Virus record (IMG/VR): IMGVR_UViG_3300049002_000003
Location: 1-60,656 of that record
Source of the DNA: a virus
Taxonomy: Duplodnaviria > Caudoviricetes
Reading direction: 5' to 3' (one strand)
Length of the DNA: 60,656 nt
A program made the translations under genes and the position numbers. The notes beneath the pieces were generated by a model. That model searched no databases, was not told the DNA's origin, and was given only the letters and a program-made list of their open reading frames with translations. Below are positions 1,114-60,050 of the stretch, in pieces. How positions within the stretch are numbered: the first letter of the stretch is position 1; each line of letters starts with the position of its first letter.

Positions 1114-1791
1114 CTACATGACTTCCTGTGCAGATATCGACACGTAGTCATTCGCGTCGAATCGCATGGCTCCGGTACCGGAAGTCCGCTTGACCCGAAA
1201 CTGAACTGTATAGCTACCGGGCGCGAGCGCTGGTGCGACTTTGTTCTCAACCGAGAATGGTTTGCGGTCTCCGGTGACGTTACCGAACCATTGACCAATC
1301 TCGGTATCGACTCCATTGACAAGCGCCGCAAATGACATTGCATTGTTCGCGGCAGTGATGATAGTTCCGGTGCCAGATACTCGCACGAGAATCGAGGTAA
1401 CGGGCGACAGCTTGTTGAGTGTGCAGACTATTCCAGTAAAGCTGGTGTAGCTGGCTGATGAGAAGTCAGTAGTGCCGGCCAAGTCAGTGTAGGTAAGCGG
1501 CACGGTCGGGAAGGCGCTAGCTCCAGCAATCGAGCCTATGATTACTGGCGAGCCGGCGGCAACAAGCAAATAGACCTTGTCCCCCACAGCAGGCGAGTAT
1601 GATGACAGCCATGGCACGCCCGGCACCGGGTCGGGCGGATTCGGGTCATCGTCCGCGATAGCCCAAGTAATCGTTGCTACTCCGGCCGCGAAGGCGCTGA
1701 TTGTCGCTACCTTCAAAACCGGCGCATTCAAGACGTTGCCGAACTCGCGCTTGAACAGCGCTAGCATCGCGCGGACTTCGTCTGCTGCCAT
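1114..1791 (-). CDS. Minor tail protein
   Basis: Last gene of the tail block. N-terminal 'WLSSYSPAVGDKVYLL' OB-like motif is common in actinophage tail-tip proteins; C-terminus is beta-rich. Confidence 0.7.
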   Translation of the reverse strand: MAADEVRAMLALFKREFGNVLNAPVLKVATISAFAAGVATITWAIADDDPNPPDPVPGVPWLSSYSPAVGDKVYLLVAAGSPVIIGSIAGASAFPTVPLTYTDLAGTTDFSSASYTSFTGIVCTLNKLSPVTSILVRVSGTGTIITAANNAMSFAALVNGVDTEIGQWFGNVTGDRKPFSVENKVAPALAPGSYTVQFRVKRTSGTGAMRFDANDYVSISAQEVM

Positions 1792-21770: not shown

Positions 21771-23280
21771 TCAGAGTTGCGTCAGCGCGCGCCGCGAATG
21801 GGTCTGCGGCGGTCGGGTCGGAAGCGGCAGGAGTAGCCGACGCGGCAGCAATCTCCTCTGGTGTCATATCGAACCCGAGTTCATGGATCTGGCGGACGGC
21901 CCAAGGCAGCAGCCCAGGAATCACGCCCACTACCGACAAGATGTCCTTGAGCGCGCCGCTGATGTTTGGCGGTAGCTTCGAGCCGAGCGTTGGTACCACG
22001 AGTGCTGTCGGCAGGTTGATCTGCTCATATGCGGACAACCAACCGCGCGCCAAGTCGAAGAACATCTGGGTATGCACATCCGTGACAATGCGGTCCTTCT
22101 TCGCAGCGCTGGCGAGAATGGGACCGAGTTGCATGATCAGGGAGATGCCCGACTCCGCCACGGCGACGTCAACCTTGCCGGCCGCCGCATCGGTCGCGCC
22201 GCTCGCTTCCTTGATCGAGTTGATCAGGAATGCCAGGTGATCTTGGTATGGGTCTAGGTCCTTCACGCCGGTGACCCGGTTGAATGACGAGCCGGTCTTG
22301 AGCTCAATCACGCGACCAGGGCCGAGCTTCCACGACGTCGGCTTCCCTGTGGTCTCATCCCGGGGTGGGCCGCTGTCGGTCGCATACACGCCCAAACCTT
22401 CGAGCGCCAGCGCTAGGTCTTCATCGGACACGCTCTGATTGATGGCCGCTATCACGGTCTCGAAGCCGCGTAGCTCGCTGGAGCCGTACGGGTCGCCTGG
22501 TGTCTCGAAGTTGGGCAAGTGGTAGACCGGCAGCGCTGTGATCTGCGCCGGTAGCGCGGTAGCTGACAGCACCTTAAGTGGCTTCTTCTTTGGGTCACCC
22601 CAGTCGTCCAGCTTCCATATCCCCAGCTGGGAGAAGATGGCCTGGTTGGCGCCGTCTGGGTCATTGAGGGGGTCTGGGCCTTTGCTGTAGCGCTGGACCT
22701 TCAGCCGGACGTCGTTGCCATCTGTGATCTGCTCGATGATGTCGACGCCAATCACACGGTCCACGTCATCCGGATGCGTGATCTTGAAGAATGACCCAGG
22801 ATCAAGCGGCAGAATGGAGATCCGGGAGCCGGCCGGCTTCAGCGGGTTGGCCAAGATATGCCAGCACCAGTCGCCTCGAATGAGACCGAACAGCTTGTTG
22901 GCGTCGAACTTGCTGAGGAAGCGCTCACGCGAGAACAGCTGAGTGAAGGCAGCTTTCGCCAGAGCCAACTCCGTATCGGGCGCCGATAGCGGGTCCACCA
23001 TCCAGTCAAACCCGGTCGCAACATAGCGGTCCATGGTGTTGATCAGGGTCCGCGCTGTCGGAATATAGATCGGCCGCGCACCAGAGCCGCGCTGGATGAT
23101 CTTGAAGGTGTCCGGCACGTTCCAGTAGATCTGCTCATACACCTGGTACGCATCAAGCCTCTGCTGATCGAGGCCGGTCAAGTAGCTCCGCGCGCCACCC
23201 TGCGAGAACTTGGTGCCCAAGAAGTCTCTGAGCGTCGAGTACGGCGTCAGGATAGGGAGCAGCTGGGTCGGTGCCGTCAC
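21715..23280 (-). CDS. Portal protein
   Basis: Follows the terminase; GTG 23280 with a GGGAG RBS; 'LPVYHLPN...GDPYGSSEL' motif. Confidence 0.9.
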   Translation of the reverse strand: MTAPTQLLPILTPYSTLRDFLGTKFSQGGARSYLTGLDQQRLDAYQVYEQIYWNVPDTFKIIQRGSGARPIYIPTARTLINTMDRYVATGFDWMVDPLSAPDTELALAKAAFTQLFSRERFLSKFDANKLFGLIRGDWCWHILANPLKPAGSRISILPLDPGSFFKITHPDDVDRVIGVDIIEQITDGNDVRLKVQRYSKGPDPLNDPDGANQAIFSQLGIWKLDDWGDPKKKPLKVLSATALPAQITALPVYHLPNFETPGDPYGSSELRGFETVIAAINQSVSDEDLALALEGLGVYATDSGPPRDETTGKPTSWKLGPGRVIELKTGSSFNRVTGVKDLDPYQDHLAFLINSIKEASGATDAAAGKVDVAVAESGISLIMQLGPILASAAKKDRIVTDVHTQMFFDLARGWLSAYEQINLPTALVVPTLGSKLPPNISGALKDILSVVGVIPGLLPWAVRQIHELGFDMTPEEIAAASATPAASDPTAADPFAARADATLNGTTPATNGATANASTGA

Positions 23281-23327: not shown

Positions 23328-24794
23328 CTAGGCGGCCATGTCCGCTTCGCTGACGCGCGAGCCGCTGTCGTCTGCCGGCTCACCGAAGTAGCCGATGAAG
23401 AACCGGCCAAGCGCCTCAGGGCAGTGGTCGTCCTTCTTCATGGGCGCCTCAGGAACCTCTTTGCCAGACTCTGCGGCCTCTTGCGCGCTCTTGGGGTAGC
23501 GGTAGTCATTCATCTCACGAATGGTGTTCAGACACTTCCGCGCTACCAGTAGGCGCGGCAACTTCTCCGGGTGCCCATCCTCCAGCCAGGCGTTCCTGGG
23601 CTTTAGTGCGGCCCGAATCAGGCGGAGCCGTGGCCGGAGCTCACCCCCGGTACCGCCCGACGCATTGATCTTCAGGTAGTTCTCCAGCGCCTTCGTGTCA
23701 CCAGGAGAGGCAGGGTCTGGGTAGAACGTCCGGACCGACTGCGGCGCCAGCTGTCGCTCCTGTAGCTCCATGGCGACTTCGTCAATGGTCAGTCCGCTCT
23801 CGTACATCTCATCGATCACATATACGTTGCCGTGGAAGTCGACTTGTATCAGCAGCCAAACAAATGGGTTGGTGAAGCCATAGTCGCACGCCGCGAACAG
23901 CGGCCATTCCGGGTTGTACCGCAGATCCCTTACGTGCATCTCCTCATCGAAGTCCTTGAACACGCGACCAGCGAACTCGGTGAACTTGGCAGCGATCTCC
24001 TGGTTGAACGTCTCGGTCGACAGGTCCAGCAATTGCGAGACGATCTCAGGGTCCACCCCTGAGTCGGCCACTATCTGCGGGGAGAGAGCGCCGGAGCGGA
24101 TGGCATCAGACACCATCTTGATGCCCTTGAGGGTCGCGCCTTTCGGATAGATGATGTTGTTCCGCCACGACGGCATACGCCATGACTCCCACTCATCGTC
24201 TACTTCGGACTGTCCACGCAGCCACAACTCATAGAACCAGTTCTTGCCCTCTGGAGTTGAGCTGAATAGGCTCCAACCCCGGTAGTCCGCCAGCATCGGC
24301 CGGATGTACTTGGTCCAGGTGACCTGCTTCTGCTTCGCGGCCTCCGCCATGATGACGCCGTTGAGCCCTTCGCCCACGAGCCGCTCAGGGTGCTTCGCGG
24401 ACTTCGCCATAACGATGAACTTGCCGCCGTACATCGACAATGCCATGTCGCCGTCGTGCGGGTTGTTGTACGTCCCAGGCCTGTCAAACGGCGCGTCTTG
24501 GGCCCTGAGAGCGTCGTACAGCACCCTGAACTCTTTCTCTGAGTCCGTGTACTCAGGACCCACGATCCAGAACTCTCGGCGCTTCCCAGTCTCGATGAGG
24601 CGCGGCTCCATCAACTTGGTAGCAGCGCTCTCCCGCAACAGGACATGGCCGCCTACTACCGACTTGCCGAGCCGGCGCCCAGCAGCCACGACCTTGTTGC
24701 GTGTCCGACTGCGATAGATGGGCCGCTGCCCGGCGTGCGGGACGTGGCCCGCCTTCCTGAACAGCAACTCTTGGTTGAGAGCGAGCCGACTCAT
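23328..24794 (-). CDS. terL: Terminase large subunit
   Basis: Walker A 'AAGRRLGKS', Walker B-like 'VIMAEAA', 'SSTPEG', nuclease 'DYGFTNP' and 'KKDDHCPEAL'. Confidence 0.95.
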   Translation of the reverse strand: MSRLALNQELLFRKAGHVPHAGQRPIYRSRTRNKVVAAGRRLGKSVVGGHVLLRESAATKLMEPRLIETGKRREFWIVGPEYTDSEKEFRVLYDALRAQDAPFDRPGTYNNPHDGDMALSMYGGKFIVMAKSAKHPERLVGEGLNGVIMAEAAKQKQVTWTKYIRPMLADYRGWSLFSSTPEGKNWFYELWLRGQSEVDDEWESWRMPSWRNNIIYPKGATLKGIKMVSDAIRSGALSPQIVADSGVDPEIVSQLLDLSTETFNQEIAAKFTEFAGRVFKDFDEEMHVRDLRYNPEWPLFAACDYGFTNPFVWLLIQVDFHGNVYVIDEMYESGLTIDEVAMELQERQLAPQSVRTFYPDPASPGDTKALENYLKINASGGTGGELRPRLRLIRAALKPRNAWLEDGHPEKLPRLLVARKCLNTIREMNDYRYPKSAQEAAESGKEVPEAPMKKDDHCPEALGRFFIGYFGEPADDSGSRVSEADMAA

Positions 24795-25435
24795 GCCGGC
24801 TCGGCTTGCTCGCCGGACTGCTCGTCATCCATCTGGAACGTGACCTCTTCGACCGTCTCATCCCACTTGTTCGCCACGATTGCCCGGATGACCTCAGGCA
24901 CCTTCCCGTACACGCGCTCGATGAGAATGTTGGCAGCGCGGAGCCGGACAGCCTCATCGGTGTACTGCGAGAAGGCGAGCTTCGCTACCACTTTGATGGC
25001 GAGCTTCCCGAACTTGGCGAACTCGCCTTCACCACGCCGCAATAGCTCGCTCTGGAACAGCGCCTGGAACTTGCGATTGAGCTCCGGCGGCCGGCCTGAG
25101 AAGTCGCCATCTCGCGTCCGGCATTGCCGCCGAGCTAGCTCCTCATCGTCCAGATCTTGCATGGTTAGCTCGCCATCCAGAAGCATCTGCCACCGGCTCC
25201 GCGAGTTGTCAATCCCAAGTGCGGCCTCTTCTGCCTCGCGCTTCTTCCGCGCTGCGATCCGGGCGCGCCTTTCCTCCAAAGCCCTTTTCCTACCGGCCTC
25301 GAATGCTGCTGCATGTTCGGGCGAGCTAGAGCCACCAGCTCGCCTATTCGGCCGCGTCTTCGTCTTCGCAGGAGGCACTATGCTAATGACTGAAGCTTCA
25401 GCAGCCGGTCTTTGGGGACGCTTGCGATCGGCCAT
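24791..25435 (-). CDS. Putative terminase small subunit
   Basis: ATGA-coupled to terL; helical 'VRLRAANILIERVYGK' motif. Confidence 0.6.
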   Translation of the reverse strand: MADRKRPQRPAAEASVISIVPPAKTKTRPNRRAGGSSSPEHAAAFEAGRKRALEERRARIAARKKREAEEAALGIDNSRSRWQMLLDGELTMQDLDDEELARRQCRTRDGDFSGRPPELNRKFQALFQSELLRRGEGEFAKFGKLAIKVVAKLAFSQYTDEAVRLRAANILIERVYGKVPEVIRAIVANKWDETVEEVTFQMDDEQSGEQAEPA

Positions 25436-25611
25436 GTCTCCATTCCAATCCGAAAGATGTCAAGTTGGAAGGAGTCTATCTGCCGATGGGCTAGATAGCA
25501 CTCAGGCCAGTAGCCGGGTCAATTGCATCAGGGTCGTCCGGCGAGGTACGCACAGCCATGCCTATGCGCTCGCTCTCGGTCGGCTCATGGTCGCTGTCCT
25601 GAATGAGACCA

Positions 25612-25675: not shown

Positions 25676-26099
25676 AAGCCTAACCGCACACCGCAGCAGA
25701 CCCATGCCTTACCAGAGCCGTACCGAACCGAGCCGTAGCACCGCTTACCAACCCAAACCTCAAACTGCCGTACCGGGCCTACCCTCACCACACCTTGCCT
25801 CGCTCGGCCCAGCACCGGTCGTCCACACCACACTGTTCCACGCCGAGCAGAACCTAGCCGATCCCAGAAGAGCCATTCCACGCCAGCCCCAGGCTTAGCA
25901 TTCCGACCCGACCATTCCACACCTTTGCACACCATACCGAGCCAGACCGGTCCAAACTCCGCCTTGGCACCCCATACCATTACCAGACCTGACCATGCCC
26001 ATCCTGTCCGGGCCGGTCAACGCCAGTCCGTGCACGGGCTTAGCCACCCAGACCTTACCAGACCAATCCCGGGCACGCCATACCGCGCCTTCGCTAGCC
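25676..26099 (-). repeat. Long 5-nt-period array (GGY-NN on the minus strand), about 85 units; candidate guide-type ncRNA
   Basis: Plus strand reads NN-RCC in register, e.g. ttacc agacc tgacc atgcc catcc tgtcc gggcc. Intergenic, with a few 1-nt register shifts. Confidence 0.85.
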
Positions 26100-26288
26100 C
26101 TGCATATCCGTACGAGAAGACCCTACGGGTCACGTCTGTTTGCCGCCCGTAATGCAATCCCAGTTCGTCCCTCGCGTACGCGCGCATCACGGGCGCGACC
26201 GGGCGACGCGCGCTGGCGTAGCGCGCGTGAGGCGCGCGTACAGCCGCGCGGGTCGCGTGAGGCGCGTACGTCGGCGCTGGGTGAGGAG

Positions 26289-26397
26289 TCGCGCGCTCCC
26301 GCGAGAGCAATGGAGTTTCCTACGCGCGTAGGAAGTTTGGCTTCTCTCGCGGACGTACGCGAGACCTGCTGCGCGGCGAGGGGCGTGCGCCCGCGCG
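26289..26397. repeat. Palindromic element copy 1 (related to 45724-45830)
   Basis: TCGCGCGCTCCCGCGA-N13-TCCTACGCGCGTAGGAAG...CGTAC.CGAGACC...GCGCGGCGAG, containing the perfect palindrome TCCTACGCGCGTAGGA. Confidence 0.8.
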
Positions 26398-26976: not shown

Positions 26977-27051
26977 GGTAGCTCCTCAATTCGGCGCGAC
27001 CCGGTGCCGCGCACAGTTCAACCCTACTGGTTTGCAGCCACTGGAGGGAAC

Positions 27052-27101
27052 CTCCCTCGCCGCGCCGAGACATGCCCCGCCTAGCCCAGCCTCGCCTCGC
27101 A
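27052..27101 (-). repeat. Short GGY-NN pentamer tract (10 units)
   Basis: Plus strand: ctccc tcgcc gcgcc gagac atgcc ccgcc tagcc cagcc tcgcc tcgca; intergenic. Confidence 0.65.
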
Positions 27102-27186
27102 CACGCGCTATGCGGCCTAGTTCCACCGTAGCGGCTGCCGAACCCACTTACCCCGATCCGACTACCCTAGAGGCGCCAGATCTGCC

Positions 27187-30562: not shown

Positions 30563-31348
30563 CTACTCGTCATCCTCATCGTCATCGTCCAACTCCTTCA
30601 TGGGGACTTCGCCGGTGATCGGCTTGAGTGAGCCGACCTTCAGTGACGCCTCCATGACGGTCCAGTGGCTGTTCCGGATCGCCGTCCTGATCCAAGTCAC
30701 AATGGTTGACTCGGGCGTGGAATGCCGGTCCACGTACAGCGACTTGATGCCGAAGCTGAGCATGACGGCGCAGTGTTCCTCGCCGGACTTGACCTCTTGG
30801 TGCAGCACGCTGCCGTCGGGCATCTCGACCAGGTATCTGGTGGTGGTCTCCATCCTCCCGTACTTCGACAGCGTCATGACCGGGTCTTCCGCATCCACGG
30901 TGGTGTTCTGCGACAGCCAGCGCTCCACACGGTCTCTCAGCCGATCGAAGGCAGTTGGCCACTGCTCCTCGGACTGCGCGACGATCAGGATGGCCTCGCC
31001 TTCGGCTGCGTAGTACCGCGTGACCGGCGGGATTCCCAGCTGCTTGAGAGCGCCGTTCAGACCTTCGTCGCACCAGCCTTCGGAGCGCTGTCCGGCGAGC
31101 GCGACGCGCCGCACACGGTCCTTGTAGCGCTGCTGGTCGAAGTCCGCGAACAGCAGACCGCTGTCGCGCAACTCCACCAGCGCCTTCATGTACCAGTTGC
31201 CGTCCATGCCGATACAGCCGAGCCGTTCTGCGGACCTCTGCAGCCAGTCCAACTCCAACTCCTGGAGCTTCGACTTGGGCATCACGAGCGCCCCATCCGG
31301 CTCAGCATCAGCCGCCGAAGTCGTGGGCGTGAGCGTCACCTGCGCCAT
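30563..31348 (-). CDS. Hypothetical protein
   Basis: 261 aa, AAGGAGAGG RBS, acidic tail; contains a 'WCDEGLNGALKQLGI' motif. Confidence 0.7.
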   Translation of the reverse strand: MAQVTLTPTTSAADAEPDGALVMPKSKLQELELDWLQRSAERLGCIGMDGNWYMKALVELRDSGLLFADFDQQRYKDRVRRVALAGQRSEGWCDEGLNGALKQLGIPPVTRYYAAEGEAILIVAQSEEQWPTAFDRLRDRVERWLSQNTTVDAEDPVMTLSKYGRMETTTRYLVEMPDGSVLHQEVKSGEEHCAVMLSFGIKSLYVDRHSTPESTIVTWIRTAIRNSHWTVMEASLKVGSLKPITGEVPMKELDDDDEDDE

Positions 31349-31406
31349 ACCAAACCTCTCCTTCGCTCGCCGTGGCCTACTCTGCCTCGCCTCGACTCGC
31401 CTGCCC
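31342..31406 (-). repeat. Short GGY-NN pentamer tract (13 units) filling the intergenic gap
   Basis: Plus strand: gcgcc atacc aaacc tctcc ttcgc tcgcc gtggc ctact ctgcc tcgcc tcgac tcgcc tgccc (9 of 13 end in CC). Confidence 0.6.
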
Positions 31407-31921: not shown

Positions 31922-32194
31922 TCAGTTGCCAGCGCAAACCGGGTCGCGGACGACCACGGTCGGCGCGCTGTCCGTCTTGTCGTGCGTCGAGACGTAGATG
32001 CCGTTGCCCTTGTAGCAAGCGATGGCGACGTTCGGGAAGTGGTCCGGCATCGGCACCACAGGCACGTCCGACTTCGGGACCTGCGCTGCCGGCGCGTCGC
32101 CGGTACCGCGACTGTCCGAGCCGCACGCCGTGAGCGAAGCGCCGAGCGCCAGGCCTGCGGCCGCGATGGCGAGTTTCTGGATGGTGTTCATCAC
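31922..32194 (-). CDS. Lipoprotein
   Basis: Signal peptide with lipobox 'LTAC'; coupled to the stop of the RAMP-like gene. Confidence 0.7.
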   Translation of the reverse strand: MMNTIQKLAIAAAGLALGASLTACGSDSRGTGDAPAAQVPKSDVPVVPMPDHFPNVAIACYKGNGIYVSTHDKTDSAPTVVVRDPVCAGN

Positions 32195-32835
32195 GCCTCA
32201 AATCTGGTCTGAGCGAAGTTGGTCACGAGGAACCGGCCATACGTCGGCCGGAAGTCTGCGATGCCGACGACTCGGCCGCCGTTCTCCAGGACCTGCTGGA
32301 AGACGGTTGGGGAGACGTACTCCGGCAGGTTGATCATGAACTGGAAGGATGCGGTCCACCCCTCGTTGAAGGCTGGCCGCGAGCGCGTGACGCCGTTCCG
32401 CTGCACCATGACGCGCCGCTGGTCCATGAAGTCCCAGTCGGTCACGCCGCCGTTCAGCGGCGCCAGGTCGGTGAGCGGCACGATGGCTGCCTTCATGAGC
32501 TGAGCCATGGACGCTCGCGGCGAGCGCGGGTCGGGCCGGAACTTGGCCGAGTTGACCATGACCTGCCGGACGTACTCACCCGGCAAGCACAGCTGGTTAT
32601 TGCTGTTCCGCCAGACGTACGACTGGACGTCGTCAGTCTTCTTGGCGGCGCTGCCCTTCGCAGCAGCGGACTTCTCCGCCACCGACTCGACCGACCATCG
32701 GTGGAACAGCATCGGGCATACCCCGGTGAGGGTGAAGTCCACGATGACCGGCTCTGTCAGAGAGATGATGTCGTTGCCGTCGTCCGACGTCGGCTCCAGC
32801 ACGTCGGTCGCTTTGCCGTTCGCTTTCGCTGCCAC
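32191..32835 (-). CDS. Solo Cas7/RAMP-like RNA-binding protein (214 aa)
   Basis: GTG 32835 with a GAAGGAG RBS. RAMP-like layout: first strand 'FTLTGVCPMLFH', 'LCLPGEYVRQVM' (cf. IPGSSxKG of Csm3/Cas7 RAMPs), thumb-like 'DQRRVMVQRNGVTRSRPAF', C-terminal G-rich loop 'GGRVVGIADFRPTYGRF'. Confidence 0.7.
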   Translation of the reverse strand: MAAKANGKATDVLEPTSDDGNDIISLTEPVIVDFTLTGVCPMLFHRWSVESVAEKSAAAKGSAAKKTDDVQSYVWRNSNNQLCLPGEYVRQVMVNSAKFRPDPRSPRASMAQLMKAAIVPLTDLAPLNGGVTDWDFMDQRRVMVQRNGVTRSRPAFNEGWTASFQFMINLPEYVSPTVFQQVLENGGRVVGIADFRPTYGRFLVTNFAQTRFEA

Positions 32836-32850
32836 TGTGGCTCCTTCTGT

Positions 32851-32945
32851 TGCCCTGGCCGGACCACACCCGTTCTGGCCCCGCAGTACCTGTCCCAGAC
32901 TTGCCCCGCCTTGCCTGTCCTTACCGGACCTAGGCAATCCAGACC
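32851..32945 (-). repeat. GGY-NN pentamer array (19 units) directly upstream of the RAMP-like gene
   Basis: 15 of 19 in-register units end in CC on the plus strand and 11 are exact NN-RCC. The array ends 3 nt before the RBS. Confidence 0.85.
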
Positions 32946-32998
32946 ATCGGCTCGCCTAGCCGCTCACACGTACCCTCTCGCGCCGAGAGCTACTGGCG

Positions 32999-33304
32999 CT
33001 ACTGTGCGTCGAGAAGACGCAGCAAAGACTCGGCTGCTTCTCTGGAAGTAGAAGTAAGACGTCCTTCGGCCCAGTCATGGACAGCCGCAAGCTTCACTTC
33101 CAGACCTGCGATCCTGTCGTGCAGGAGCATGATCTGGTCTGCGGCTGTAGAAGCGTCGGGAGCGGAGACGCCCAGCATGCCGAGCAGATGGTTGATCGAG
33201 TCGCGTTGGTTCCTGATCTGTACCATGCGGCGCGCGTCCAACTCGGTCGCCATGCGCATGACGTCCTGCTTGTCGTGGTAGTTCTTCACACCATCGAGCG
33301 CCAT
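32999..33304 (-). CDS. Hypothetical coiled-coil protein between two pentamer arrays
   Basis: Start is ATG 33304 or GTG 33289. The ORF-track extension further upstream is translated array sequence. Confidence 0.55.
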   Translation of the reverse strand: MALDGVKNYHDKQDVMRMATELDARRMVQIRNQRDSINHLLGMLGVSAPDASTAADQIMLLHDRIAGLEVKLAAVHDWAEGRLTSTSREAAESLLRLLDAQ

Positions 33305-33519
33305 GCCGTCACTCGCCTCTCCTAGCCTTCGCTTGGCTTCCCATACCATTCCATGCCGGAAGCGCTCCAATCCCCGCAGCATCGAACCGTAGCCAGCACG
33401 ACCGCGTAGAACCGGTCCACACCATACCGAGCATTGCCCAGACCTACCGAGCCGTTCTCTGCCCCGCCACGCCGATCCGTTGGCGCAACCGGCCCAACCC
33501 AGCCTCTCCTGGCCGAGCC
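33288..33519 (-). repeat. GGY-NN pentamer array (about 45 units)
   Basis: Plus strand e.g. gaacc ggtcc acacc atacc gagca ttgcc cagac ctacc gagcc, and cggcc caacc cagcc tctcc tggcc gagcc. It begins at the stop of the upstream gene. Confidence 0.85.
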
Positions 33520-33740
33520 TAGGAGTGGAAGACCTCGTTGAAGGTCACCAAGCGGATCTCCTGGCCGACGACGAATGGCGGCGCAGAGCCGTCCGCGAAC
33601 GTCAGAGTCATGCTGGCGTCGGCCAGCACTTCACCTTCAGCCTCCGCGACTTCCTCCGGCCGCACGAGCGTCGCCGTGAACGAGTTGGGCTGTACGTCCG
33701 TGACCTGAACGTGCATATCCCAACGGTGTGACTGTGGCAT
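33519..33740 (-). CDS. Small hypothetical protein (73 aa)
   Basis: ATG 33740 with a GAAGGAG RBS; first gene of the RAMP/array locus. Confidence 0.65.
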   Translation of the reverse strand: MPQSHRWDMHVQVTDVQPNSFTATLVRPEEVAEAEGEVLADASMTLTFADGSAPPFVVGQEIRLVTFNEVFHS

Positions 33741-33746
33741 CCCTGT

Positions 33747-33790
33747 CTCCTTCGGTCGGGTTGAACCTAATACTGCGGTCTGGGCTGGGG
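33747..33790 (-). promoter_or_regulatory. Putative promoter/leader of the RAMP-array locus
   Basis: Minus strand TAGGTT (-10-like) followed by CCCGACCGAAGGAG, the same leader found downstream of the early promoter repeat at 55734-55747. Confidence 0.4.
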
Positions 33791-36700
33791 CTACGTCGGG
33801 TCGATCACCCAGACGTCTTCCACATAGACCGATGCGCCGAAGCGCGTCGCATCGTACTTCCCGCGCACCAACAAGACATCGCGGTCCATGTTGAGATCCC
33901 ATAGCGCCTTCTCGAATGCAGGGAAGATGAAGCGGTTCCAACGGAGATAGATGATGGTGTCTGTCTCGTCTAGCGCGTGGATCACCATCCGCTTGACAAG
34001 GTCAGGCCGCTTCATGCGAGCGCGGATGACCTCATAGTCCTCACCGGTCTGGCCACGCTGGTCCTCAACCACGTCTCGCGAGTCGCGAAGCGTCGGAACG
34101 CAGGCGTACACCACTTTGGTGTCGCGTCCAAGAGCTTCGATCTGGGCCCCATTATGGGTCGGCTTAGGCAGCATTATGGCGCGCGAGTCGATGGCCTTCC
34201 GAACAGCCTGGAGCTTCCGGTCTACCGCATGGATGGAGAACGGGTCATCGGTACCGGCCTTCGCTAGAACAGCCGTCAGTTTAGCCGGCCCAATTCCCTT
34301 CACCCGCAGAAGGCTCGACCAGTCCTCGAATGGTCCATTCTCTGCCCGGTCGCGGACGATGTTCCCCGCATGCCAGAGCCCTAGTCCGGGCAGCTGGCTG
34401 AAGCCGGCGCCGATCCGGCCGTTCCGAATGCCCCAGGTCTCCTGTGAGCGCTTCAGGCTCGGCGCTGCTATCCGGACACCATGCTTGATAGCGTCGCGCA
34501 ACAGGAAATACTCATCGTCCGGGTACTTCAACAGGCAAGCGGTGAAGAACTCAATCGGGTGGTAGACCTTGAGCCACATCGTCCAGTACGCCAGCATAGC
34601 ATACGAGACGGAGTGTGCGACGTTGAAGGCATAGGTGCCGGCTGTCGCCATGCGGGCCCAGATCTCCTTGGCCTCCGCTTCCTTCATTCCATGCAAGCGC
34701 TTCGCACCTTCGAGGAACAGTCCTTGCCGCATGTTGAACGCCGCGTTGCCGTGCTTGAGCGAGATGATCTTGCGGATCTCTTGGGCGTGGGTCCAGTCGA
34801 AGCCGCCGATGAGCCGGACAATCGCAAGGATCTGCTCTTGGTAGATAATCTGGCCCTTGGTCCAGCCGATGATGTCCACCAGAGCGCGGTGGATCTTCTC
34901 CGGCTTGATCTTCCTGTGCTTGGTCCAGATGTACCGCTCGGTCGAGCCGGAGTGAAGCGGTCCAGGGCGGGACAGCGCATTGATGTCGGCTAGCTCCATA
35001 AATGTGTCCGGCTTCACACCACCACAGACGATCCGAGTTGCCCCACCGCCGAACTGGAAGATGCCCGTCAAGTCGCCATCTGCGAACGCTGCGATGATCT
35101 TCGGGTCATCCAGCGGGACGTCGTACATATCCTCAAGTGTCTTGCCGATCATCTTGAGGGCATGCTCTATCATGCCGAGGGTCGACAGCCCAAGGAAGTC
35201 GACCTTCATCAAGTTCAGGTACTCGGCGTCATACTTGTTGACGGACAGGACTTGTCGCTTGCGCTTCGCCTTGCCCGATCCGGTCTCGCGCTCATACGTC
35301 GCGCAGACGTCCGTCAGCGAACTGTCCGCGACGACTAGGCCGCAGGCATGGACCGACATGCCCTTGGTGTTGCCTTCGAGCCGGAGCGCCTTCCAGAGGA
35401 CTGGATAGGCATCCATGACCTCCTTGGCCTGCGGGAACATCGCAACCGTGTCTTCGAGCGTAGCTCCAGCCCGCGCGTCGCCAGAGCTACGCTCAATCAT
35501 CAGGTCCTTGATGACCTTGACGTGGTAGTCAGGCACTGCGTTGACGCGAGCTACGTCAACCAGAGAGTTCTTGCCCTTGTAGAGCGTGTACGTGCCGATA
35601 GCGCCGACCCGGTCGGCGCCATAGACTTGAATCGCATGCTGAGTTAGTTCGTCGCGCCGATGGTCAGCGAAGTCCAAGTCAACGTCGGGCACGTCCATGC
35701 GGTCGAGCGCGATGAACCGCTCGAAGTACATCATGGGGAATTGGAGCGGATCAACCTCAGTAATGCGAAGTAGGTAGCAGGTAAGAGATGCCGCTGCGGA
35801 GCCACGAGCCGGACCAACGGGGATGGGGTGTCCGTTGCCGTCATCCTTGGCCCAACGAACCAGTTCGGACAGCATCAAGAAGTAGTCTATGAAGCCCTTC
35901 TCGGAAATGATGGACATCTCGTAGCGGAGCCGCTCAAGATACTTCGCGCGCTGCTTCTTCAATCGGTTGTTGAAGCGCGCCCGGTAGTCCCAACCCTGCT
36001 TCAGCCAATCCCAGATCAACTTCTTGCTCGACGTGTACCCGTCTGGTAGCGGGAACCGGAGTCGCTCAGCCTTTGGCAACTTGACGTTACAGCGCGCAGC
36101 AATCTCTTGAGTTGAGTAGAGCGCTTGCTGCGCAGCCAGCTTGCTAAGACCTGTGCCCATAAGCCGTTGCATGACTAGCTTGTCTGACGTCGGGTGCGTC
36201 AGGCGAATGTCGTACTCCCAGCCTTCGGCCTGCTTCGAGACCGTGCCGGCGCCACGGCCGGCCGCGTGGAGAATCAGTTGCATCTCATTGTCGTCCGGGT
36301 GCGGGTAGTGCACGTCAGCTGTCGCTACTAGCGGTATGCCATAGCGCTGTCCCTCTTGCGCATACCACTGGTTGATAGCATGAGACCGTTTGAGCTCAGG
36401 AAACATCTGCGTCTCAAGGTAGAACCGGTCTCCAAGCAAGTCCTTGAACCGCTCGATAGTTCGGCGCGCTGCGCGCTCGCTTGGAGCGTCGTTCCCTTTG
36501 CCGCCGAGTAGGTCACACGCTAGCTTCGAGTCGGCGCAACCGGACAGCACTATGAGACCTTCGTTGTGCTCGGCCAGCATGTCGCCGGAGACAGTCGGCC
36601 AGCGGTAGAACCCTTCGGCCCAACTCCGCGTAACGATCTGCATCAAGTTGTGGTAGCCGGTCTGGTCGGCCGCCAACAGCGTCAGGTGCCACTTCCGGGT

Positions 36701-36937
36701 ATTGCCGGTCTCGCGCATGTCAGCCGGACCAGTGTATGCCTCCAAGCCGAAGATTGGCTTGACGTTGTGCTTGAGGCAGAACTTCTCGTGTGGCGCGTGT
36801 GACGAGACGTTCCCATGTTCAGTCACGGCTTGCGCCTTCATGCCTAGCTCGGCTGACCGCAGTACGTGTTGCTCCTCGGTCCCATAGCCGTCGCCATAGG
36901 ACTTCGTAGTGTGGTGGTGAAGCGAGACGTACTTCAC
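33791..36937 (-). CDS. dnaE: DNA polymerase III alpha subunit-like
   Basis: PHP domain 'SLHHHT..SYGDG', 'TEHGN', 'GPARGSAAASL', catalytic 'PDVDLDF', 'KVDFLGL', 'YAFNVAHS'. Confidence 0.95.
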   Translation of the reverse strand: MKYVSLHHHTTKSYGDGYGTEEQHVLRSAELGMKAQAVTEHGNVSSHAPHEKFCLKHNVKPIFGLEAYTGPADMRETGNTRKWHLTLLAADQTGYHNLMQIVTRSWAEGFYRWPTVSGDMLAEHNEGLIVLSGCADSKLACDLLGGKGNDAPSERAARRTIERFKDLLGDRFYLETQMFPELKRSHAINQWYAQEGQRYGIPLVATADVHYPHPDDNEMQLILHAAGRGAGTVSKQAEGWEYDIRLTHPTSDKLVMQRLMGTGLSKLAAQQALYSTQEIAARCNVKLPKAERLRFPLPDGYTSSKKLIWDWLKQGWDYRARFNNRLKKQRAKYLERLRYEMSIISEKGFIDYFLMLSELVRWAKDDGNGHPIPVGPARGSAAASLTCYLLRITEVDPLQFPMMYFERFIALDRMDVPDVDLDFADHRRDELTQHAIQVYGADRVGAIGTYTLYKGKNSLVDVARVNAVPDYHVKVIKDLMIERSSGDARAGATLEDTVAMFPQAKEVMDAYPVLWKALRLEGNTKGMSVHACGLVVADSSLTDVCATYERETGSGKAKRKRQVLSVNKYDAEYLNLMKVDFLGLSTLGMIEHALKMIGKTLEDMYDVPLDDPKIIAAFADGDLTGIFQFGGGATRIVCGGVKPDTFMELADINALSRPGPLHSGSTERYIWTKHRKIKPEKIHRALVDIIGWTKGQIIYQEQILAIVRLIGGFDWTHAQEIRKIISLKHGNAAFNMRQGLFLEGAKRLHGMKEAEAKEIWARMATAGTYAFNVAHSVSYAMLAYWTMWLKVYHPIEFFTACLLKYPDDEYFLLRDAIKHGVRIAAPSLKRSQETWGIRNGRIGAGFSQLPGLGLWHAGNIVRDRAENGPFEDWSSLLRVKGIGPAKLTAVLAKAGTDDPFSIHAVDRKLQAVRKAIDSRAIMLPKPTHNGAQIEALGRDTKVVYACVPTLRDSRDVVEDQRGQTGEDYEVIRARMKRPDLVKRMVIHALDETDTIIYLRWNRFIFPAFEKALWDLNMDRDVLLVRGKYDATRFGASVYVEDVWVIDPT

Positions 36938-49356: not shown

Positions 49357-49455
49357 CGCTCAAAGGGCCAGACCTGTACCCACCGACGTGACGAAGGAAG
49401 GAGCCACCCAAACTTCGCGACTAGCAGCTGGTATACAGGTCTGGCCTTTTGAGCG
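49357..49455 (-). ncRNA. Long intergenic stem-loop (22-bp arms, 55-nt loop), candidate small RNA
   Basis: CGCTCAAAGGGCCAGACCTGTA / TACAGGTCTGGCCTTTTGAGCG (one mismatch). The loop carries the complement of a shared RBS motif. Confidence 0.45.
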
Positions 49456-52702: not shown

Positions 52703-52723
52703 GACGTGGCTCCTTCGGTTAGT

Positions 52724-55408: not shown

Positions 55409-55438
55409 CTTCGTGGCTCCTTCGGTTCCGCTGTTCGA

Positions 55439-58065: not shown

Positions 58066-58090
58066 CGGTGGCTCCTTCGGGTCGGGCGGC

Positions 58091-58155: not shown

Positions 58156-58568
58156 CAGTTCGACTGCTCTGCGGCTTCGTCGGGGTGCGCTGCGGCCCAT
58201 CGGTCGTACGCCTCTTCGCGGACGGCCTCCATGTCCGGCTGTACGGCGTTCTTGAGTATGGCGATGAAGTAGGCAGCGTTGCGCGCCTTCCCGACGTCGT
58301 CTTCTGCTTCGGCTCCGGCCTGTAGCCGTTCCATGATGTCGTCTAGCTCAGCCCAGTACCGGTCCAGGAGCTTCCCGCGCACGCCCGGTAGCAGAGCCTC
58401 GCCAATGGCGCGGCCTAGCTCCTGTAGTAGCTCGCGGCTCATGTAGTACGTTGCGCCCTGGCCAGCCTCAGCCTGTCCCTGCCCGCCCATATGGTCGAGT
58501 TGGACGATGAAGTCGACGGCAGCGCCGCGAGTCTTCCGATCAGCCGCAGTAGTCGGCGTGATCTTCAC
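58155..58568 (-). CDS. Hypothetical protein
   Basis: GTG 58568 overlapping the upstream TGA. Confidence 0.6.
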   Translation of the reverse strand: MKITPTTAADRKTRGAAVDFIVQLDHMGGQGQAEAGQGATYYMSRELLQELGRAIGEALLPGVRGKLLDRYWAELDDIMERLQAGAEAEDDVGKARNAAYFIAILKNAVQPDMEAVREEAYDRWAAAHPDEAAEQSN

Positions 58569-59701: not shown

Positions 59702-59717
59702 CTGTGGCTCCTTCGGG

Positions 59718-60026: not shown

Positions 60027-60050
60027 CGTGGCTCCTTCGGCGGCAGTTCG

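What the first reader, a model, noticed from the sequence alone, without database searches (positions are those of the whole stretch)
32191..33790. Solo Cas7/RAMP-like gene flanked by GGY-NN pentamer arrays: candidate phage RNA-guided system without CRISPR
Seen in sequence: a 214-aa gene with a RAMP-like motif layout (LTGVCPMLFH; LPGEYVR; C-terminal GIADFRPTYGRF G-loop). Two co-oriented non-coding arrays with a 5-nt period lie upstream, at 32851-32945 (abutting the RBS) and 33288-33519. On the sense strand each unit is a near-constant GG(C/T) plus two variable bases, e.g. GGTCC GGTAA GGACA GGCAA GGCGG GGCAA. No cas1/2/3/5/6/8/10 gene or repeat-spacer array was recognised. Established: Cas7-family RAMPs polymerise along RNA with a fixed nucleotide step per subunit. 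Inference: one subunit binds each pentamer through GGY, and the NN dinucleotides jointly form a discontinuous guide. The NN string of the proximal array is CT TT TA CC AA CA AA GG AA TG CA AC GG CA CG GT CC CA CA. Targets could be competing phages, host genes or this phage's own promoters, probably by binding rather than cutting since no nuclease is adjacent. I recall a recent report of viral solo-RAMP systems with GGY/NN RNAs (named VIPR); that is recollection and not verified here.
Basis: partly seen in the sequence, partly recalled or inferred. Interest (0 to 1): 0.96.

Follow-up and report, generated by a model that had tools for sequence, protein, structure and literature searches.

The report
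Phage VIPR system: Vipr plus guide arrays

Summary
Observation confirmed; interpretation supported; the class is already in print.

- **Protein.** The 214-aa gene (32191-32835, minus strand) is a Vipr-family RAMP. A profile of it and 35 homologues hits PDB 36pp 'SUSP1 Vipr protein' (E 2.6e-11); the single sequence also hits it (E 9.9e-7). The AlphaFold model (pLDDT 87) matches Csm3/Cmr4/Cas7 (Z up to 11.8). The published GGY-contact residues are conserved.
- **Arrays.** Both arrays are real: lag-5 G autocorrelation 0.46 and 0.36, reached by 0 of 1000 dinucleotide shuffles. About ten further same-strand blocks lie at 31342-31406, 27052-27096 and 25715-26109.
- **Relatives.** Sense-strand arrays flank the gene in 77 of 80 viral and 70 of 75 genomic homologue loci, against 3 and 2 on the antisense strand.
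- **Prior work.** VIPR is described in four 2026 preprints. This scan's notes already hold 538 findings with these words.
- **Open points.** I found no target, either in the phage itself, in relatives, in IMG/VR or metagenome seed scans, or in 401 genomes. I also found no conserved accessory gene, no shared 3' tail and no RNA data. The VIPR type cannot be assigned because supplements are closed.

Verdict: new member of a known kind, modest interest.

The parts
32191..32835 (-). vipr gene: 214-aa Vipr-family RAMP (RRM core, thumb hairpin about residues 136-156, G-loop GIADFRPTYGRF)
   Evidence: ORF and translation. Profile hit to PDB 36pp_D 'SUSP1 Vipr protein', E 2.6e-11. Single-sequence hit, E 9.9e-7. 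AF2 model pLDDT 87.1. Csm3/Cmr4/Cas7 fold matches.
32837..32847 (-). ribosome-binding leader GAAGGAGCCAC, 1 nt before the GTG start; the same 11-mer precedes five other genes of this phage
   Evidence: 7 matches in the window against 0.03 expected; 6 lie on the minus strand 1-4 nt before a start codon.
32851..32945 (-). array D: 19 pentamer units (15 GG), candidate vrRNA in the vipr leader; NN = CT TT TA CC AA CA AA GG AA TG CA AC GG CA CG GT CC CA CA
33288..33357 (-). array C: 14 units; its 3' part contains the RBS and start (33301) of a 100-aa ORFan
   Evidence: ORFan status.
33399..33478 (-). array B: 16 units (12 GG)
33490..33519 (-). array A: 6 of 6 GG units. It starts on the stop codon of the 73-aa ORF and is separated from B by 11 nt (register shift).
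31342..31406 (-). array E: 13 units (9 GG). It fills the gap between two genes and includes the RBS and ATG of the next gene. Weakest candidate.
27052..27096 (-). array F: 9 units (8 GG), about 75 nt upstream of a 159-aa membrane-anchored ORF
25715..26109 (-). far array cluster, blocks G-L (13, 10, 15, 14, 13 and 4-5 units), 6-6.5 kb downstream of vipr in the about 1-kb gap before the terminase genes. Junctions between blocks: 15 nt, 1 nt, 14 nt, 10 nt, 10 nt.
   Evidence: Lag-5 autocorrelation 0.43, z 8.7, 0 of 1000 shuffles.
31922..32194 (-). 90-aa lipoprotein-like gene (signal peptide and LTAC lipobox read by eye). Its start overlaps the vipr stop. It is a neighbour, not a conserved partner.
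   Evidence: Weak phrog_542 hit, E 0.004. Absent from 81 relatives' loci.

Best explanation
The locus is a VIPR (Viral Interference Programmable Repeat) system in a complete 60.7-kb soil phage genome. It has one vipr gene and about a dozen co-oriented GGY/NN pentamer tracts that encode guide RNAs (vrRNAs).

Mechanism, shown for SUSP1 in the papers and inferred here from homology:
- Vipr protomers polymerise along the vrRNA, one per pentamer.
- Each GGY is flipped out and held by two neighbouring protomers. The equivalents here are H45 and D194 for G1, R153 and F195 for G2, and E87, Y88 and R196 for Y3.
- The NN pairs are presented to double-stranded DNA that reads NN-x-NN-x (one skipped base).
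- This forms an R-loop triplex that blocks transcription.

The most likely targets are competing mobile elements, as in the published cases. No target was identified, so that step is inferred.

The tracts sit in intergenic gaps of one long co-directional gene cluster. They are probably cut out of read-through transcripts (inferred; no RNA data).
For: Protein homology.
- Profile of 36 sequences hits PDB 36pp_D 'SUSP1 Vipr protein': E 2.6e-11, query 36-207 against chain 6-190 of 202.
- The single sequence hits it at E 9.9e-7.

Residue mapping. Taken from those alignments, the conservation list and the paper's residue roles:
- H17 = H45 (invariant in 36 sequences)
- E71 = E87 (at least 90%)
- K82 = K98 (at least 90%)
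- K88 = R104 (invariant)
- R138 = R153 (at least 90%)
- D177 = D194 (at least 90%)
- W178 = F195
- R179 = R196 (invariant)

Fold.
- AF2 pLDDT 87.1, pTM 0.79.
- Foldseek top hits are Csm3 and type VII Cas7 (E 5.6e-7; 132 chains at E<=0.001).
- VIA-align: 6s6b_I Z 11.8 (rmsd 3.4, 160 aligned) and Csm3 6ae2_B Z 11.6 (rmsd 2.9, 152 aligned).

Arrays..

Family-wide association.
- 77 of 80 IMG/VR loci have a sense-strand chain of at least 7 GG units; 3 of 80 have an antisense one. That is 241 chains against 5, with 239 of the 241 within 1 kb of the gene.
- 70 of 75 bacterial or archaeal genome loci have a sense chain; 2 of 75 have an antisense one. That is 176 chains against 6.
- Position 3 is a pyrimidine in 90% and 88% of GG units there.

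Array junctions. The window has the junction kinds that dominate in relatives: 10-nt in-phase gaps (36 cases in all, this window's own included) and 1-nt register shifts (17 in all, this window's own included). The 1-nt shifts fit the 'staggered arrays' of the paper's Fig. S18 legend.

Genome. A viral record with direct terminal repeats, 100% complete.

No self-target at or above control level, as the paper reports for its systems.
Against: - No target found. Seven seeds from six guides gave 0, 0, 12, 8, 45, 9 and 28 exact matches in IMG/VR, and 117 in the metagenome scan for one of them. The rest of each guide matched at 22-28% on average, which is chance.
- Guide D with up to 3 mismatches: 0 of 5 and 0 of 401 genomes.
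- Guide K: 1 match against 2 control matches in 121 genomes.
- The arrays are more degenerate than in relatives. GG occupies 104 of 128 units, and Y at position 3 is 76% against 88-90%.
- No conserved accessory (vap) gene. None of eight neighbouring proteins occurs in 81 relatives' loci. The ORF between the arrays has no homologue in 5.8 billion proteins.
- No shared 3' tail or stable structure. Fold z-scores run from -1.2 to +0.4, and there is no shared flank repeat.
- No evidence of transcription could be obtained.
Confidence: 0.9

Rival explanations
1. A decaying or idle VIPR locus. The protein is intact, but the arrays have drifted, so few or none of the tracts still guide anything.
For: Lower GGY conformity than in relatives: 76% against 88-90% pyrimidine, and 24 of 128 in-phase units lack GG. 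No target for any of six guides tested.
Against: - Vipr keeps every mapped contact residue.
- Positions 4 and 5 are near-uniform in a 62% G+C genome, while G1 and G2 are kept over 395 nt of non-coding DNA.
- The paper itself notes frequent internal degeneracy of vrRNAs.
- Missing targets are expected when the competitor is unsampled. The searches needed exact seeds or at most 3 mismatches.
Confidence: 0.07
2. The tracts act mainly in cis. Vipr filaments assembling on pentamer tracts inside the polycistronic mRNA, next to ribosome-binding sites, would tune translation or processing of vipr and neighbouring genes rather than guide DNA binding.
For: Array D ends 3 nt before the RBS leader, 15 nt before the vipr start codon. 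Arrays C and E contain the RBS and start codon of the next gene. In relatives the upstream array also ends just before the gene (example L001).
Against: - The far cluster G-L and most relatives' downstream arrays precede no start codon.
- The hypervariable NN positions are unexplained by a purely cis role.
- The characterised homologue works in trans on DNA.
- Not tested here.
Confidence: 0.02
3. Chance or coding periodicity. The pentamer signal would be a by-product of G-rich composition or of an unrecognised reading frame, for example the 248-aa ORF from TTG 32937.
For: Open frames do run across some arrays.
Against: - A period of 5 is incompatible with coding.
- 0 of 1000 dinucleotide shuffles reach the signal.
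- There is a strict strand bias, and the arrays co-occur with the gene in 147 of 155 relatives' loci.
- Homologues' N-termini align with the GTG start at 32835, not with the longer ORF.
Confidence: 0.01

Closest known systems
Type II VIPR of Escherichia phage SUSP1 (Vipr + vrRNAs + vap1). Sources: bioRxiv 10.64898/2026.04.26.720920, 10.64898/2026.04.26.720927 and 10.64898/2026.10.15.759431; PDB 36pp.
   Same: - Homologous protein with conserved GGY-contact and DNA-clamp residues.
- Co-oriented GGY/NN pentamer tracts, one of them directly upstream of vipr.
- Phage-encoded, with no cas genes or CRISPR array.
- No self-targeting.
   Different: - Distant in sequence: tblastn of the phage collection does not reach SUSP1, and only 1 of 50,697 records hits.
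- No vap1-like partner found.
- No recognisable conserved tail or pseudoknot.
- Tracts lie at five sites spread over 8 kb rather than one upstream plus a downstream trio.
- Junctions are register shifts or 10-15-nt gaps.
- Targets unknown.
VIPR systems with 'staggered' vrRNA arrays (Fig. S18 legend of 10.64898/2026.04.26.720920; figure itself not viewable)
   Same: Successive in-phase blocks are joined by 1-nt register shifts. In this window that is H|I at about 25979. There are 17 such junctions in all, this window's own among them.
   Different: Which VIPR type (I-VII) shows this, and whether this clade belongs to it, is in supplementary data that I could not open. The processing sites are unverified.
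Cas7-family RAMPs of class 1 CRISPR-Cas (Csm3, Cmr4, type VII Cas7)
   Same: Same fold: RRM core, thumb and G-loop. Z 11.8 and 11.6; Foldseek E 5.6e-7. Same principle of one subunit per fixed RNA step.
   Different: - 8-17% sequence identity.
- No match to Pfam RAMPs PF03787.
- No cas1, no repeat-spacer array, no partner subunits.
- 5-nt rather than 6-nt step, and a gapped guide.
Solo vrRNAs on vipr-less phages and satellites (10.64898/2026.10.15.759431; sections 8 and 17 read)
   Same: vrRNA-type tracts located away from any vipr gene, as with the cluster at 25715-26109.
   Different: Here the same genome does carry vipr. None of this window's guides matched vipr genes or arrays of 81 relatives above controls.

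Membership tests
VIPR system | Protein homologous to a characterised Vipr | tested here: met
   Profile against PDB: 36pp_D 'SUSP1 Vipr protein', E 2.6e-11, nearly full length. Single sequence: E 9.9e-7.
VIPR system | Minimal RAMP fold: RRM core, thumb, glycine-rich loop | tested here: met
   AF2 pLDDT 87. Best structural matches are all Cas7-type RAMPs. The G-loop GIADFRPTYGRF aligns with SUSP1 GVGDWRPRFGRF. Taking the beta-hairpin at 136-156 as the thumb is inferred from R153 = R138.
VIPR system | Residues that bind G1, G2 and Y3 of the repeat are conserved | tested here: met
   H45, R153, D194, F195 (for W), R196 and E87 are mapped through the HMMER alignments onto the roles given in the cryo-EM paper. 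They are invariant or at least 90% conserved in 36 sequences, except F195, for which no conservation figure is available.
VIPR system | Tandem GGY/NN (YNNGG) pentamers, at least 4 units, on the gene's strand next to vipr | tested here: met
   Array D has 15 of 19 GG units and abuts the RBS. Arrays A-C lie 450-680 nt upstream.
VIPR system | GGY kept while NN is hypervariable | tested here: met
   Window: positions 4 and 5 are near-uniform and position 3 is 76% Y. Relatives: 88-90% Y with all four bases at positions 4 and 5. This is composition only. No orthologous vrRNA alignment was possible.
VIPR system | Individual vrRNAs of about 9-16 repeats | tested here: inconclusive
   In-phase blocks have 6-19 units. 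True RNA ends are unknown without RNA data.
VIPR system | Conserved structured 3' tail (pseudoknot in the SUSP1 clade) | tested here: inconclusive
   No repeat shared by the array flanks. Folds are no more stable than shuffles. No Rfam or hammerhead hit. The tail is described for type II; other types are in the unseen supplement.
VIPR system | Accessory vap gene beside vipr ('typically' two genes) | tested here: not met
   None of eight neighbouring proteins recurs in 81 relatives' loci. The ORF between the arrays is an ORFan. A RusA-type gene follows vipr in 42 of 156 relatives, but the window has none. The paper words this feature as typical, not obligatory.
VIPR system | Viral or proviral location without CRISPR array or cas genes | tested here: met
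   Complete virus record with terminal repeats. Terminase 51% identical to Gordonia and Micrococcus phages. No Cas1, Pfam RAMP or CRISPR-like period.
VIPR system | vrRNAs expressed and bound by Vipr | not testable with these tools
   No sequencing run on record as RNA holds the locus.
VIPR system | Natural DNA target obeying the 1-nt-skip rule | tested here: inconclusive
   No match above shuffled or reversed controls in the phage itself, in 81 or 156 relatives' loci, in IMG/VR and metagenome seed scans, or in 401 and 121 genomes. The large scans required exact seeds or at most 3 mismatches.
CRISPR-Cas class 1 effector (Cas7/Csm3) | RAMP encoded with other cas genes and a repeat-spacer array | tested here: not met
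   No Cas1, no PF03787 match, no CRISPR-like array. Only the fold is shared.

The most novel reading that the evidence does not exclude
Placing guide tracts inside mRNA leaders may be functional. Array D ends 3 nt before the vipr ribosome-binding leader (15 nt before the start codon), and arrays C and E contain the RBS and start codon of the next gene. Vipr filaments forming on the nascent polycistronic RNA could therefore feed back on translation of vipr and its neighbours. That would couple guide loading to gene expression. I did not find this layer in the main texts read: 'autoregulat', 'UTR' and 'translational' have 0 occurrences in the October 2026 preprint. The other papers were not searched for these terms.
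Probability: 0.1. Interest if true: 0.5.

Novelty: new member of a known kind. Interest (0 to 1): 0.3.

Why it matters
It adds a complete, well-delimited example of VIPR in a high-G+C soil phage whose packaging genes resemble those of actinobacterial phages. It also documents a large Vipr clade that is almost entirely metagenomic: 1536 homologues, with only one hit among 50,697 GenBank phage records.

In that clade the guide tracts flank the gene in more than 90% of loci. Junction types recur, and guide tracts can lie far from vipr. About a quarter of relatives pair vipr with a RusA-type nuclease gene.

None of this changes the published picture. The value lies in annotation and in choosing systems to test: the one GenBank homologue is labelled 'helix-turn-helix transcriptional regulator'.

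Tried and rejected
Target hunting (all negative):
- Self-scan of ten guides under skip 0, 1 and 2 equals shuffled-unit controls. Skip 3 only finds the array itself.
- The same ten guides against 81 relatives' loci (733 kb) equal controls.
- 2394 twelve-unit guide windows from 156 relatives' loci against this window: best 20 of 24, the same as shuffled controls.
- IMG/VR exact seeds (16-18 specified bases): guide D 5' part 0 hits, B 0, K 12, H 8, D 3' part 45, I 9, J 28. Non-seed units matched at chance.
80 of them are one repeated sequence. Extension averaged 22%.
- The genome search with guide D, up to 3 mismatches: 0 of 5 named loci's genomes and 0 of 401 genomes of one class.
- Guide K: 1 match against 2 control matches in 121 genomes.
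- Reading the guides as NNx codons by eye gave no motif I could recognise.

Other negatives:
- Expression: no RNA holder listed. The only holder is a soil DNA run that may be the source.
- A second vipr: the 214-aa ORF 24791-25435 is unrelated. It is a small terminase subunit.
- Conserved partner.
- Shared multi-unit blocks between distant arrays: 2-unit blocks 5 observed against 4.6 expected. One 3-unit block is shared by B and I, and 37 of 500 shuffles do as well.
- The motif GCTAAGCC at two junctions is not significant: 4 matches, and 4 of 100 shuffles reach that.
- Tandem Repeats Finder does not see the arrays, because only 3 of 5 positions are fixed.
- Host: not determined.
- VIPR type (I-VII): not assignable, because figures and supplementary tables are closed.
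- In one search array E was entered out of phase. Its 12 units are excluded from the 104 of 128 count.
Full report
**What is there.** The window is a complete virus record of 60,656 bp with direct terminal repeats. It has 62% G+C, and a soil-metagenome DNA run holds it. Nearly all genes lie on the minus strand. Its large terminase is 51% identical to those of Gordonia and Micrococcus phages. The host was not determined.

The gene at 32191-32835 (minus strand) starts with GTG one base after the leader GAAGGAGCCAC. Upstream lie DnaE (33791-36937), a 73-aa ORF and a 100-aa ORF. Downstream lie a lipoprotein-like gene whose start overlaps the vipr stop, two ORFs of unknown function, a thymidylate-synthase-like gene and then the terminase genes.

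**The arrays are real.**
- In the best register, 15 of 19 pentamers at 32851-32945 start with GG.
- The distal region consists of three blocks with register shifts: 33490-33519, 33399-33478 and 33288-33357.
- Lag-5 G autocorrelation is 0.46 and 0.36, reached by 0 of 1000 dinucleotide-preserving shuffles. The vipr coding region gives 0.03.
- A window-wide scan found every 60-nt stretch with at least 8 of 12 in-phase GG on the minus strand. The sites were 33288-33549, 32846-32960, 31342-31406, 27037-27111 and 25710-26114. The plus-strand maximum was 7.
- Chains of at least 6 GG units number 11 on the minus strand and 2 on the plus strand. Shuffles average 2.1 for both strands together.
- In 104 GG units of 128 in-phase units, position 3 is a pyrimidine in 79 (76%). 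Positions 4 and 5 are almost equiprobable.

The set includes a 395-nt cluster 6 kb downstream, just before the packaging genes.

**The protein is a Vipr.**
- Pfam gives nothing above threshold, and PHROGs gives only an unnamed family.
- The protein has 1536 homologues at E<=0.001 among 1884 candidates, and 1141 cluster representatives.
- A profile of 36 of them hits PDB 36pp_D, 'SUSP1 Vipr protein', at E 2.6e-11 over almost the full length. The single sequence hits it at E 9.9e-7.
- The AlphaFold2 model has pLDDT 87.1. Its best matches are Csm3, type VII Cas7 and Cmr4 (Foldseek E 5.6e-7; VIA-align Z 11.8 and 11.6).
- I mapped the residues that the cryo-EM preprint names (Results part 1 read) through the HMMER alignments:
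  - H17, D177 (G1) = H45, D194
  - R138, W178 (G2) = R153, F195
  - E71, R179 (Y3 pocket) = E87, R196
  - K82, K88 (non-target-strand clamp) = K98, R104
- All but F195 are invariant or at least 90% conserved in the 36-sequence alignment.

**The arrays travel with the gene.**
- 77 of 80 IMG/VR loci encoding a relative carry at least one sense-strand chain of at least 7 GG units. Only 3 carry an antisense one. That is 241 chains against 5, and 239 of the 241 lie within 1 kb of the gene.
- Among 75 loci from bacterial and archaeal genomes, 70 carry a sense-strand chain and 2 an antisense one. They include many Phycisphaerales, and also Mycobacterium, Nocardioides, Nitrospira, cyanobacteria, Thermomonas, Alicyclobacillus and a Bathyarchaeia MAG.
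- The third position there is a pyrimidine in 88-90% of units.
- Junctions between successive blocks across the clade are mostly 10-nt in-phase gaps (36 non-redundant cases) or 1-nt register shifts (17). The window's own junctions are counted among these, and it shows both. The 1-nt shifts fit the 'staggered arrays' of the discovery paper's Fig. S18 legend.
- Guide tracts far from vipr are not unique to this phage. One of five relatives' whole records (G409) has tracts about 7, 50 and 74 kb from its vipr, one of them on the opposite strand (only part of the match list was shown).

**Comparison with what is known.** VIPR was described in bioRxiv 10.64898/2026.04.26.720920 (Results and Methods sections 17 part 1, 26 and 27 read, plus passages). 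Three further preprints followed:
- 10.64898/2026.04.26.720927 (Results part 1 read).
- 10.64898/2026.10.15.759431 (abstract and sections 8 and 17 read).
- 10.64898/2026.10.21.760802 (passages read), which recovers 99 VIPR-like period-5 clusters.

This scan's own notes already contain 538 findings with these words in at least 406 genomes. The same reader noted this genome's other arrays separately.

The discovery paper's main text does not mention Actinobacteria or RusA. The taxonomic tables are in supplements that I could not open. I cannot say whether this clade, or which of types I-VII, is covered. Seven of the 120 best homologues listed come from NCBI, so the clade was probably within reach of the paper's PSI-BLAST.

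**What does not fit, or stays open.**
1. No target. Self-matches, matches to relatives' loci, and relatives' guides against this phage all equal controls. Seed-and-extend scans of IMG/VR and the metagenome collection gave only chance extensions. Mismatch-tolerant scans of 401 and 121 genomes gave nothing above the reversed-pattern control.
2. No accessory gene. None of eight neighbours recurs in 81 relatives' loci. The ORF between arrays C and D is an ORFan. In 42 of 156 relatives a RusA-family endonuclease gene (PF05866) follows vipr within 1.5 kb on the same strand. The window has none.
3. No shared tail or significant RNA structure.
4. The arrays are less regular than in relatives.
5. No RNA data.

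These points lower confidence that this copy is active. They do not lower confidence that it is a VIPR locus.

**Verdict.** The finding is a new member of a known kind. I put 0.9 on membership of VIPR and on a SUSP1-like mechanism. The remainder is split between a decaying locus and a mainly cis-acting role. Interest is modest because the class, its code and its structure are already published, and nothing here departs from them in kind.

Noticed in passing
window 32837-32847, 52706-52716, 55413-55423, 58068-58078, 59704-59714, 60028-60038 (minus strand); 49397-49407 (plus strand): The 11-mer GAAGGAGCCAC occurs 7 times (0.03 expected). Six copies sit 1-4 nt before start codons, vipr included. 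One copy lies on the other strand, so it is antisense to the leader in a minus-strand transcript. It looks like a shared strong translation-initiation module.
   Followed up: partly
loci L006, L007, L010, L012 and 38 others: In 42 of 156 relatives' loci a RusA-family endonuclease gene (PF05866) lies directly downstream of vipr on the same strand, usually after one short array. It may be an accessory nuclease of that subclade. The word RusA is absent from the main text of two VIPR preprints.
   Followed up: partly
L081 = GenBank OR003939.1 (Phage DSL-LC04) 22429-23046: This is the only GenBank phage record of 50,697 with a tblastn hit to this Vipr (54% identity). The gene is annotated there as 'helix-turn-helix transcriptional regulator'. 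Three sense-strand GGY/NN arrays (21, 11 and 10 units) lie just upstream, the middle one flanked by an 8-nt inverted repeat.
   Followed up: partly
G409 (record of L042), about 1340-1400 (-), 25453-25510 (+), 82563-82630 (-): A 108-kb relative has GGY/NN tracts tens of kilobases from its vipr (near 75 kb), one on the opposite strand. Dispersed guide loci therefore occur elsewhere in this clade.
   Followed up: no
window 58454-58488 (minus strand): A further short in-phase chain (6 of 7 GG units) in an intergenic gap far from vipr. It could be chance or another mini-tract.
   Followed up: no
window 26170-26370: A G+C-rich stretch dense in CGCG/CGTACG palindromes and inverted repeats (45-nt and 24-nt arms) lies between the far array cluster and the 159-aa ORF. 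It may be an origin or packaging-related region.
   Followed up: no
window 33399-33478 (B) and 25904-25978 (I): Arrays B and I share one three-unit block (CTC TAT TGT at positions 3-5 of the units). 37 of 500 unit shuffles give as much. Two-unit sharing among all arrays is at chance.
   Followed up: yes
window 31922-32194 (minus strand): A 90-aa lipoprotein-like gene starts on the vipr stop codon (GTGATG overlap), which suggests translational coupling. It is not found next to vipr in 81 relatives.
   Followed up: partly
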